Of a DNA stretch of 64,000 nt, positions 63,907-64,000 are shown in pieces. The stretch lies in the NCBI RefSeq assembly GCF_055900595.2, contig NZ_CM148325.1. One strand, given 5' to 3'. The notes beneath the pieces were generated by a model. That model was not told the DNA's origin and ran no database searches. It worked only from the letters and a program-made list of their open reading frames with translations. The translations under genes and the position numbers were made by a program. Position 1 is the first letter of the stretch, and every line of letters starts with the position of its first letter.

Positions 63907-64000
63907 AACCTGCCACAAATCACAAAAAGGGGTCGATCTTTGACCCCGACTTCTCTATAATCCTGCGACCCCACGTTACAAGAAAGTTTTTTTCCCAAAA

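What the first reader, a model, noticed from the sequence alone, without database searches (positions are those of the whole stretch)
63907..64000. Hairpin and TATAAT element downstream of zapE
GGGGTCGATCTTTGACCCC forms a 6-bp stem hairpin right after zapE and is followed by CTCTATAAT. This may be the zapE terminator combined with the promoter of the next gene, expected from synteny to be rplM-rpsI just beyond the window.
Basis: inference. Interest (0 to 1): 0.2.

Follow-up and report, generated by a model that had tools for sequence, protein, structure and literature searches.

The report
Known rplM promoter with embedded hairpin
The TATAAT is the -10 box of the already characterised E. coli rplM-rpsI ribosomal-protein promoter, and the hairpin is a short palindrome inside that promoter with no evidence that it stops zapE transcription, so the finding is real but ordinary.

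Summary
GGGGTCGATCTTTGACCCC lies at 63929-63947, 22 nt after the zapE stop codon, and TATAAT lies at 63956-63961. This part of the window is identical to E. coli K-12, and rplM-rpsI follow 218 nt after zapE.

The rplM 5'UTR is 157 nt, which puts +1 at A63968, so TATAAT occupies -12..-7. Capped-RNA long reads start a few nt downstream and run through rplM-rpsI. The promoter is conserved across 75 gammaproteobacterial loci: an invariant -10, a GC-rich discriminator, a weak -35 (TCGATC, 17-nt spacer) and an A-tract at -44..-40.

The terminator half is not supported. The hairpin spans -39..-21 of the promoter. Its left arm is the -35 flank and its right arm is the least conserved part of the spacer. 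On the zapE strand it has no U-tract. Published Term-seq lists no 3' end there in three conditions. Long reads show at least one zapE-rplM-rpsI read-through transcript. The TTGACC inside the hairpin is only 10 nt from the -10, so it is not the -35.

There is a weak tendency to palindromy at this position in Enterobacterales. It leaves room for a minor, leaky role. The finding is of low interest and already known.

The parts
62779..63906 (+). zapE (yhcM) coding sequence, 375 aa, stop codon TAA at 63904-63906
   Evidence: ORF list. RefSeq annotation of identical or near-identical E. coli loci.
63898..63913 (+). Small hairpin GCGGGU-UAAA-ACCUGC with the zapE stop codon in its loop
   Evidence: Fold and hairpin listing at -7.0 kcal/mol. 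Strain SNPs at 63897 and 63913 keep or extend the pairing. Function not tested.
63922..63930 (+). A-tract ACAAAAAGG at -46..-38, resembling a proximal UP-element subsite of the rplM promoter
   Evidence: A at -44..-40 is conserved at 0.5-1.1 bits over 75 gammaproteobacterial loci, whether or not a hairpin is present. The match to the UP consensus is from memory. alpha-CTD dependence was not tested.
63929..63947 (+). Palindrome/hairpin GGGGTCGA-TCT-TTGACCCC, spanning -39..-21 of the rplM promoter
   Evidence: The left arm is conserved and the right arm (-26..-21) carries 0-0.3 bits. The hairpin in this form is limited to Enterobacteriaceae.
63933..63938 (+). -35 hexamer TCGATC, matching TTGACA at 3 of 6 positions, 17-nt spacer; contains a GATC Dam site at 63935-38
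   Evidence: Spacing counted from the sequence. Positions -35 T, -34 Y, -33 G and -32 A are conserved. Too weak to be called by the consensus scan.
63939..63955 (+). 17-nt spacer TTTGACCCCGACTTCTC. The TTGACC within it is only 10 nt from the -10 and is not the -35
   Evidence: Direct count from the sequence. TTT at -29..-27 and GACTTCTC at -20..-13 are conserved; -26..-21 is not.
63956..63961 (+). -10 hexamer TATAAT of the rplM-rpsI promoter
   Evidence: Essentially invariant over 75 loci, 1.9-2.0 bits per column, though the anchoring rule itself required a TATAAT-like hexamer. The published +1 lies 6-7 nt downstream.
63962..63967 (+). GC-rich discriminator CCTGCG
   Evidence: Conserved, and G occurs in only 1 of 75 loci at -5. 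The promoter is reported to be under negative stringent control.
63968..63968 (+). rplM-rpsI transcription start (A; G63967 in one paper; long-read TSS call at 63973)
   Evidence: A 157-nt 5'UTR (PMC10931766) with the rplM ATG at window-equivalent 64125. Primer described as 'start of the rplM mRNA' (PMC6736130). TSS 3378803 (PMC6131387).
63968..64000 (+). First 33 nt of the structured rplM 5'UTR: 5' strand of the long-range stem (63972-76), then the hp1 5' arm (63980-90), loop (63991-96) and start of the 3' arm. The UTR continues beyond the window
   Evidence: Fold of the full leader from L001 agrees with the published description of three hairpins plus a long-range stem.

Best explanation
Positions 63907-64000 are the zapE-rplM junction of E. 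coli. They hold the known sigma-70 promoter of the rplM-rpsI (L13-S9) operon and the first 33 nt of its regulatory leader. The promoter has an A-tract at -44..-40 (inferred to act like a proximal UP subsite), a weak -35 TCGATC, a 17-nt spacer, a consensus -10 TATAAT, a GC-rich discriminator CCTGCG, and +1 at A63968. This is the layout of growth-rate and stringently controlled ribosomal promoters. The 'hairpin' is a palindrome made from the conserved -35 flank (left arm, -39..-34) and the freely varying middle of the spacer (right arm, -26..-21). Its main identity is therefore promoter DNA. RNA polymerase coming from zapE does transcribe it, and the RNA can form a stable stem-loop. That stem-loop has no U-tract, gives no detectable 3' end, and is read through at least sometimes. 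It is not an efficient intrinsic terminator. At most it is a leaky pause, terminator or 3'-stabilising structure. The promoter identity, TSS and synteny are shown. The UP-like role of the A-tract and the lack of hairpin function are inferred.
For: The window is identical to K-12 from the hairpin to its end, and rplM-rpsI lie downstream. The rplM mRNA 5' end and the 157-nt UTR are published. A capped-RNA TSS with 573 reads (M9) and 224 reads (rich) starts transcripts that cover rplM and rpsI up to the rpsI terminator. Negative stringent control is reported. The ungapped alignment of 75 gammaproteobacterial loci shows TATAAT at about 2 bits, a conserved discriminator, conserved -35 TYGA and a conserved A-tract, while the hairpin's right arm carries 0-0.3 bits. 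The GGGGTC/GACCCC hairpin is restricted to Enterobacteriaceae. The + strand tail GACTTCTC has 3 U in 8, and the scan calls a terminator only on the other strand. Term-seq lists no 3' end at 3378800-3378899 in three conditions, although the neighbouring zapG hairpin and the rplM leader attenuator at 3378723 are both detected. The RegulonDB operon zapE is extended to zapE-rplM-rpsI by long reads.
Against: The negative 3'-end data are weak, because zapE is poorly expressed and no zapE TSS-TTS pair was defined in the long-read tables. Read-through needs only one read to be listed. Palindromy at this position is somewhat more common than expected in Enterobacterales. 27 of 39 taxa have a spacer 6-mer in the best quarter for folding. 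Pairing in the E. coli register is 75% against 70.6% in shuffles, with 0 of 500 shuffles reaching it. Different hairpins occupy the same place in Enterobacter sp. Ag1, Budvicia, Rosenbergiella and Erwinia. This hints at some selected role. I could not read the primary promoter-mapping paper (Aseev 2016), so the -35 and UP assignments are my own.
Confidence: 0.85

Rival explanations
1. The hairpin is the intrinsic (Rho-independent) terminator of zapE, placed directly against the rplM promoter.
For: It is a GC-rich 8-pair stem of -11.3 kcal/mol, 22 nt after the stop codon. No other hairpin lies between zapE and the promoter apart from the small one over the stop codon. In rich medium zapE and rplM each have one transcriptional context, which suggests some zapE transcripts do not include all of rplM.
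Against: There is no U-tract: the tail is GACUUCUC. A tail/stem discriminant recalled from memory gives -49 on this strand against +12.6 on the opposite strand. The scan does not call it on the + strand. No Term-seq 3' end is listed. A zapE-rplM-rpsI read-through transcript is recorded. The right arm is not conserved outside Enterobacteriaceae. Transcripts covering zapE alone could equally end at the leader attenuator at 3378723.
Confidence: 0.12
2. The stem-loop is a U-tract-less 3'-end structure. zapE transcription would be stopped nearby by Rho or by collision with RNA polymerase sitting on the very active rplM promoter. The hairpin, here or in the alternative forms seen in other genera, would then protect the zapE mRNA from 3' exonucleases and keep upstream RNA out of the regulated rplM leader.
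For: Stable stem-loops without U-rich tails mark the steady-state 3' ends of Rho-dependent E. coli transcripts (PMC6061677 abstract). U-less hairpins recur between zapE and rplM in many Enterobacterales, either inside the promoter or as separate strong hairpins when the spacer is longer. Weak covariation and palindromy signals are present.
Against: No 3' end and no coordinate of a Rho termination region falls in 3378700-3378999, other than the leader site 3378723, in the Term-seq and bicyclomycin data set. The palindromy signal is equally strong on the minus strand (26 of 39) and drops to 18 of 39 with a composition-preserving null. Several short-spacer taxa and most Vibrionales have no hairpin.
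Confidence: 0.15
3. The element is an intrinsic terminator for the minus strand, stopping antisense transcription that runs out of the rplM leader toward zapE.
For: Only on the minus strand is the stem followed by a proper T-run, GGGGTCAAAGATCGACCCC TTTTTGTGAT. The recalled discriminant is positive there, +12.6.
Against: zapE, rplM and rpsI are co-directional, so no gene converges on the site. Term-seq lists no 3' end on that strand. The T-run is the complement of the A-tract, which is conserved in taxa that lack the hairpin, including Vibrio, so it is better explained as a promoter-upstream element.
Confidence: 0.04
4. The inverted repeat GGGGTC-N7-GACCCC is an operator for a dimeric DNA-binding protein that regulates the rplM promoter in Enterobacteriaceae.
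For: It is a perfect 6-7-6 inverted repeat overlapping the -35 and spacer. The palindromy signal is strand-symmetric, as expected for a DNA-level feature. Control of rplM-rpsI by CRP has been claimed.
Against: I found no reported regulator binding this repeat. The repeat does not resemble the CRP consensus. Half of it is conserved for promoter reasons and the other half varies freely.
Confidence: 0.05

Closest known systems
rplM-rpsI (L13-S9) operon promoter and 5'UTR of E. coli K-12 (Aseev, Koledinskaya & Boni 2016, J Bacteriol 198:2494; Iost & Jain 2019, PMC6736130)
   Same: The same locus and the same sequence: window 63914-64000 is identical to MG1655. It has the same +1 and 157-nt leader with hp1-hp3, L13 autoregulation, SrmB-sensitive attenuation and negative stringent control.
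   Different: Nothing differs in sequence. The texts I could read do not discuss the palindrome overlapping the -35 and spacer or its relation to zapE. I could not read the 2016 paper.
Stringently controlled rRNA and ribosomal-protein promoters such as rrnB P1
   Same: A consensus -10, a non-consensus -35, a GC-rich discriminator without G two bases after the -10, and an A/T-rich upstream element (the class features are from general knowledge).
   Different: The spacer is 17 nt rather than the 16 nt of rrnB P1. Only the proximal half of an UP element is recognisable. No Fis sites were examined.
Intrinsic (Rho-independent) terminators
   Same: A GC-rich stem-loop shortly after a stop codon.
   Different: There is no U-tract on the sense strand, no mapped 3' end, and documented read-through.
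[quoted passage not shown]
   Same: A stable stem-loop without a uridine-rich tail downstream of a gene.
   Different: No steady-state 3' end or Rho termination region is reported at this position.
Bidirectional intrinsic terminators (A-tract, hairpin, U-tract)
   Same: An A-run precedes the stem, so the reverse strand reads as a canonical terminator.
   Different: There is no convergent gene and no 3' U-tract on the + strand. The A-run is conserved independently of the hairpin.

Membership tests
Sigma-70 promoter (rplM-rpsI P) | -10 hexamer close to TATAAT | tested here: met
   TATAAT at 63956-61. Essentially invariant in 75 related loci.
Sigma-70 promoter (rplM-rpsI P) | -35 hexamer 16-18 nt upstream | tested here: inconclusive
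   At 17 nt the hexamer is TCGATC, matching 3 of 6, which is below the scan threshold. However, T-35, Y-34, G-33 and A-32 are conserved. The better-looking TTGACC is only 10 nt from the -10 and is excluded.
Sigma-70 promoter (rplM-rpsI P) | Primary transcript 5' end 5-9 nt after the -10 | tested here: met
   Taken from published data, not re-measured here. A 157-nt UTR gives A63968. The mRNA-start primer reads GACCCC. The capped-RNA TSS is 3378803, window 63973.
Stringent-type ribosomal promoter | GC-rich discriminator and negative control by ppGpp/DksA | tested here: met
   The discriminator CCTGCG is conserved. Negative stringent control is stated in PMC10931766 and was not tested here.
UP element | A/T-rich -59..-38 matching the consensus, with alpha-CTD-dependent stimulation | tested here: inconclusive
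   The proximal part (AAAAA at -44..-40) is conserved. The distal part does not match in E. coli. The consensus is recalled from memory. alpha-CTD dependence cannot be tested with these tools.
Intrinsic terminator (for zapE) | GC-rich stem-loop | tested here: met
   8 pairs, -11.3 kcal/mol.
Intrinsic terminator (for zapE) | U-tract directly after the stem on the transcribed strand | tested here: not met
   The tail GACUUCUC has 3 U in 8. It is not called by the scan on the + strand.
Intrinsic terminator (for zapE) | RNA 3' end at the site in vivo, with little read-through | tested here: not met
   Term-seq lists no 3' end at 3378800-3378899 in three conditions. A zapE-rplM-rpsI long read is recorded. 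Caveat: zapE expression is low.
3' protective stem-loop of a Rho-dependent transcript | Steady-state 3' end at the base of a U-less stem, with a Rho-dependent region downstream | tested here: not met
   The stem is present, but no 3' end and no Rho-region coordinate in 3378700-3378999 appears in the Adams et al. tables, other than the leader site.
Rfam RNA families | Match to a curated covariance model | tested here: not met
   No match at E <= 1 in L001 2600-3500, which covers the hairpin, the leader and rplM.

The most novel reading that the evidence does not exclude
The promoter-embedded palindrome could be a selected, recurrently evolved insulator. The same bases would be read as DNA by sigma-70 and alpha-CTD (the -35 flank) and, in RNA coming from zapE, would form a stem-loop. 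Helped by polymerase queued on the very active rplM promoter, that stem-loop would end or trim zapE transcripts just before +1, so that the L13-regulated leader is not extended at its 5' end. Different lineages (Enterobacteriaceae, Budvicia, Enterobacter sp. Ag1, Rosenbergiella, Erwinia) would have reached this with different right arms.
Probability: 0.12. Interest if true: 0.3.

Novelty: already known. Interest (0 to 1): 0.1.

Why it matters
It matters little beyond correct annotation. The segment is the entry point of the L13-S9 operon. The transcription start, stringent control, L13 autoregulation and SrmB-sensitive attenuation of this operon are already described. The useful corrections are three. 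The hairpin lies within the promoter itself (-39..-21) rather than ahead of it as a separate terminator. The TTGACC in it is not the -35. zapE has no demonstrable terminator of its own and is at least sometimes co-transcribed with rplM-rpsI. If the weak palindromy signal reflected a real insulator, it would be a small example of one sequence serving both as promoter DNA and as an upstream-transcript RNA structure.

Tried and rejected
- The primary promoter paper (Aseev 2016, PMC4999927) and the SEnd-seq paper are not held.
- No supplementary text is held for Dar & Sorek 2018, the Nanopore E. coli paper or Conway 2014.
- The Cappable-seq 2016 supplements contain no coordinate near the site in either genome version.
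- Rfam gave no hit for the leader or the hairpin.
- TTGACC (63940-45) was rejected as the -35 because its spacer is 10 nt.
- A CRP site around TCACA (63920-24) was considered. The left half-site matches 2 of 5 and the centre would lie near -51.5, so I did not adopt it (sequence inspection).
- The spacer-replacement test was meant to tell + strand RNA from - strand RNA. It cannot, because both strands score alike (27 and 26 of 39). With other taxa's spacers as the null, the signal falls to 18 of 39.
- C-to-T changes in the right arm give G-U in + strand RNA, which would favour the + strand. They are also simply the commonest substitutions, so I give this no weight.
- The T7 run at 63987-93 looked like a possible terminator tail. 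It is the 3' end of the hp1 5' arm and the start of the hp1 loop in the leader.

Full report
**What is there.** The end of the window holds degS, degQ and zapG on the minus strand, then zapE on the plus strand (62779-63906). GGGGTCGATCTTTGACCCC occurs once, at 63929-63947, and TATAAT lies at 63956-61. A 401-nt query matches 5,425 of 5,426 complete E. coli genomes, and all listed matches lie in zapE. In a strain identical over the query, and in K-12 MG1655, the next genes on the same strand are rplM (218 nt after the zapE stop), rpsI, sspA and sspB. From 63914 to 64000 the window is identical to K-12. The only differences nearby are two SNPs, at 63897 and 63913. K-12 experiments therefore apply directly, using K-12 coordinate = 3442776 minus window position.

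**Is the observation more than chance?** As RNA the hairpin forms 8 pairs around a 3-nt loop, with dG -11.3 kcal/mol. The 71-nt context folds with z = -3.9. Hairpins of this class are about as frequent in the window (26 hits) as in Markov-1 random sequence (about 18). The hairpin is therefore not remarkable on its own. TATAAT is under-represented in the window, 10 sites against 24.8 expected. The consensus scan did not call a promoter here, and it called the hairpin terminator-like only on the minus strand. There the stem is followed by TTTTTGTGAT, whereas on the zapE strand it is followed by GACTTCTCTA.

**The TATAAT is the -10 of the rplM-rpsI promoter.**
- A review by the group that mapped the promoter gives a 157-nt 5'UTR and negative stringent control (PMC10931766). 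With the rplM ATG at window-equivalent 64125, +1 is A63968 and TATAAT sits at -12..-7.
- SMRT-Cappable-seq, which captures 5'-triphosphate ends, lists a TSS at 3378803 (window 63973). It has 573 reads in M9 and 224 in rich medium, and the transcripts end at the rpsI terminator and cover b3231|b3230. The 5-nt offset may come from trimming at the ACCCC start; that is my inference.
- Folding the leader from the identical strain reproduces the published long-range stem plus hp1-hp3. The window stops inside hp1, so the T7 run at 63987-93 belongs to hp1 and is not a terminator tail.
- Rfam has no family for this leader.

**Anatomy and conservation of the promoter.** I fetched 80 gammaproteobacterial rplM loci. 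zapE lies upstream and co-directional in Enterobacterales, Vibrionales and Alteromonadales, but not in Pasteurellales or Orbales. I anchored each locus on the TATAAT-like hexamer that is followed by the most GC-rich 8 nt. This gives an ungapped alignment of 75 loci. Because the anchor rule requires a -10-like hexamer, the conservation of the -10 itself is partly built in.
- TATAAT carries about 2 bits per column.
- The discriminator is C-rich and GC-rich, with G in 1 of 75 loci at -5.
- -35 T, -34 Y, -33 G and -32 A are conserved. The hexamer is TCGATC in E. coli, with a 17-nt spacer.
- TTT at -29..-27 carries 1.5-1.8 bits, and GACTTCTC at -20..-13 is conserved.
- A-44..A-40 carry 0.5-1.1 bits, with further A/T peaks near -50 and -61.
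- The TTGACC inside the hairpin is only 10 nt from the -10 and cannot be the -35.

The A-run immediately upstream of the stem is conserved in taxa that have no hairpin, including Vibrio. It is therefore best read as a promoter-upstream (UP-like) element rather than as part of a terminator. That reading is an inference, and the UP consensus is recalled from memory.

**Where the hairpin sits.** Relative to +1, the stem-loop occupies -39..-21. The left arm is -39..-34 (GGGGTC, the -35 flank). The loop holds the rest of the -35 hexamer and the conserved TTT. The right arm is -26..-21 (GACCCC), which is the least conserved stretch of the whole promoter at 0-0.3 bits. The E. coli form, or G-U variants such as GACCCT and GACCTC, is found only in Enterobacteriaceae: Escherichia, Citrobacter, Kluyvera, Siccibacter, Pseudescherichia and some Enterobacter. 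It is weakened in Superficieibacter, Pluralibacter and one MAG. It is absent in Pectobacterium, Brenneria, Serratia, Yersinia, Hafnia, Edwardsiella and most Vibrionales.

**Is it the zapE terminator?**

Evidence against:
- The sense-strand tail has 3 U in 8. A tail/stem discriminant of the d'Aubenton-Carafa type, with the formula recalled from memory, gives -49 on the sense strand and +12.6 on the opposite strand.
- Adams et al. 2021 Term-seq (three conditions, files not truncated) lists no 3' end between 3378800 and 3378899 on either strand. It does detect the neighbouring zapG hairpin (3380623, window 62153) and a very strong end at 3378723 in the rplM leader, the hp3 attenuator. No Rho-termination-region coordinate falls nearby.
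- In SMRT-Cappable-seq the RegulonDB operon b3232 (zapE) is listed as extended to b3232|b3231|b3230. So at least one capped read runs from upstream of zapE through rpsI. No TTS is defined near the hairpin.

Caveats: zapE is weakly expressed, so the absence of a 3' end is weak evidence. In rich medium zapE and rplM each appear in a single transcriptional context. This suggests some zapE transcripts end before the end of rplM. They could end at the hairpin or at the leader attenuator.

**Is there any sign of selection for a structure?** The signs are modest.
- On 39 Enterobacterales sequences, the E. coli pairing register gives 75% paired cells against 70.6 +/- 1.3 in shuffles. The covariation score is 0.208 against 0.142, with 0 of 500 shuffles reaching it, and the unslid register scores best. 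The tool's own notes warn that related sequences can do this without any structure.
- I replaced the six spacer bases at -26..-21 with all 4,096 hexamers. The real hexamer falls in the best-folding quarter in 27 of 39 taxa; the E. coli rank is 0.015.
- The minus strand gives the same result (26 of 39). A null built from other taxa's spacers gives 18 of 39. So the signal is DNA-level palindromy, it is phylogenetically non-independent, and it does not identify a strand.
- Different hairpins sit at the same place in Enterobacter sp. Ag1 and Budvicia (GGTCGATCT/AGGTCGACT), in Rosenbergiella (11 pairs, -42..-12) and in Erwinia endophytica.
- Taxa with longer zapE-rplM spacers often carry a separate strong hairpin without a T-run upstream of the promoter.

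These observations keep a minor role possible, such as a leaky pause or a 3' protective stem of the kind described for Rho-dependent transcripts (PMC6061677). They do not establish one.

**Conclusion.** The promoter and synteny inference is correct but already published. The terminator inference is not supported. The best description is the known stringent-type rplM-rpsI promoter, with a lineage-specific palindrome built from its -35 flank and spacer. zapE has no demonstrable dedicated terminator and is partly co-transcribed with rplM-rpsI. Novelty: already known. Interest: low.

Noticed in passing
window 63897-63914: A second small hairpin, GCGGGU-UAAA-ACCUGC at about -7 kcal/mol, holds the zapE stop codon in its loop. 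E. coli strains differ by paired SNPs (A63897G together with C63913T in K-12) that keep or extend the pairing. In E. albertii the stem is stronger, at -10.6 kcal/mol.
   Followed up: partly
window 63939-63941 and 63948-63955: Inside the promoter spacer, TTT at -29..-27 (1.5-1.8 bits) and GACTTCTC at -20..-13 are conserved across 75 gammaproteobacterial loci. Spacers are usually free to vary, and I have no explanation.
   Followed up: no
window 63935-63938: A GATC (Dam methylation) site lies inside the -35 hexamer TCGATC. About half of the Enterobacterales keep GATC and the rest have GATT.
   Followed up: no
window 63917-63924: AAATCACA upstream of the A-tract is conserved in Enterobacteriaceae, even where the sequence further upstream is unrelated. 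TCACA resembles a CRP half-site, and one paper cites CRP control of rplM-rpsI. The other half-site is poor.
   Followed up: partly
L084 2568 (E. coli DETEC-P836), window-equivalent 63974-63980: This strain lacks about 6-7 nt (CGTTAC) of the rplM leader at about +7..+13. That is the 5' strand of the long-range stem, the region where one published srmB suppressor maps. It could be a real variant or an assembly error.
   Followed up: partly
window 62158-62176, minus strand: The zapG (yhcB) terminator hairpin has a mixed C/U tail (TCCTCTTCTT), yet it gives a clear Term-seq 3' end at K-12 3380623, window 62153. It serves as an internal control showing that imperfect tails can be detected.
   Followed up: yes
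L009, L018, L019, L022, L048 (about -70 to -185 relative to the rplM +1): Several Enterobacterales have strong hairpins of -15 to -18 kcal/mol, some of them REP-like (e.g. CCCTCTCCCCGTGGGAGAGGG), inserted between zapE and the rplM promoter. None is followed by a T-run.
   Followed up: no
whole window: The consensus -10 hexamer TATAAT is depleted: 10 sites on both strands against 24.8 +/- 5.4 in dinucleotide shuffles.
   Followed up: no
K-12 3378803 (window 63973): The SMRT-Cappable-seq TSS lies 5 nt downstream of the +1 implied by the 157-nt UTR. The transcript starts ACCCC, so tail trimming in that protocol might cause the shift; this is my guess and is untested.
   Followed up: no
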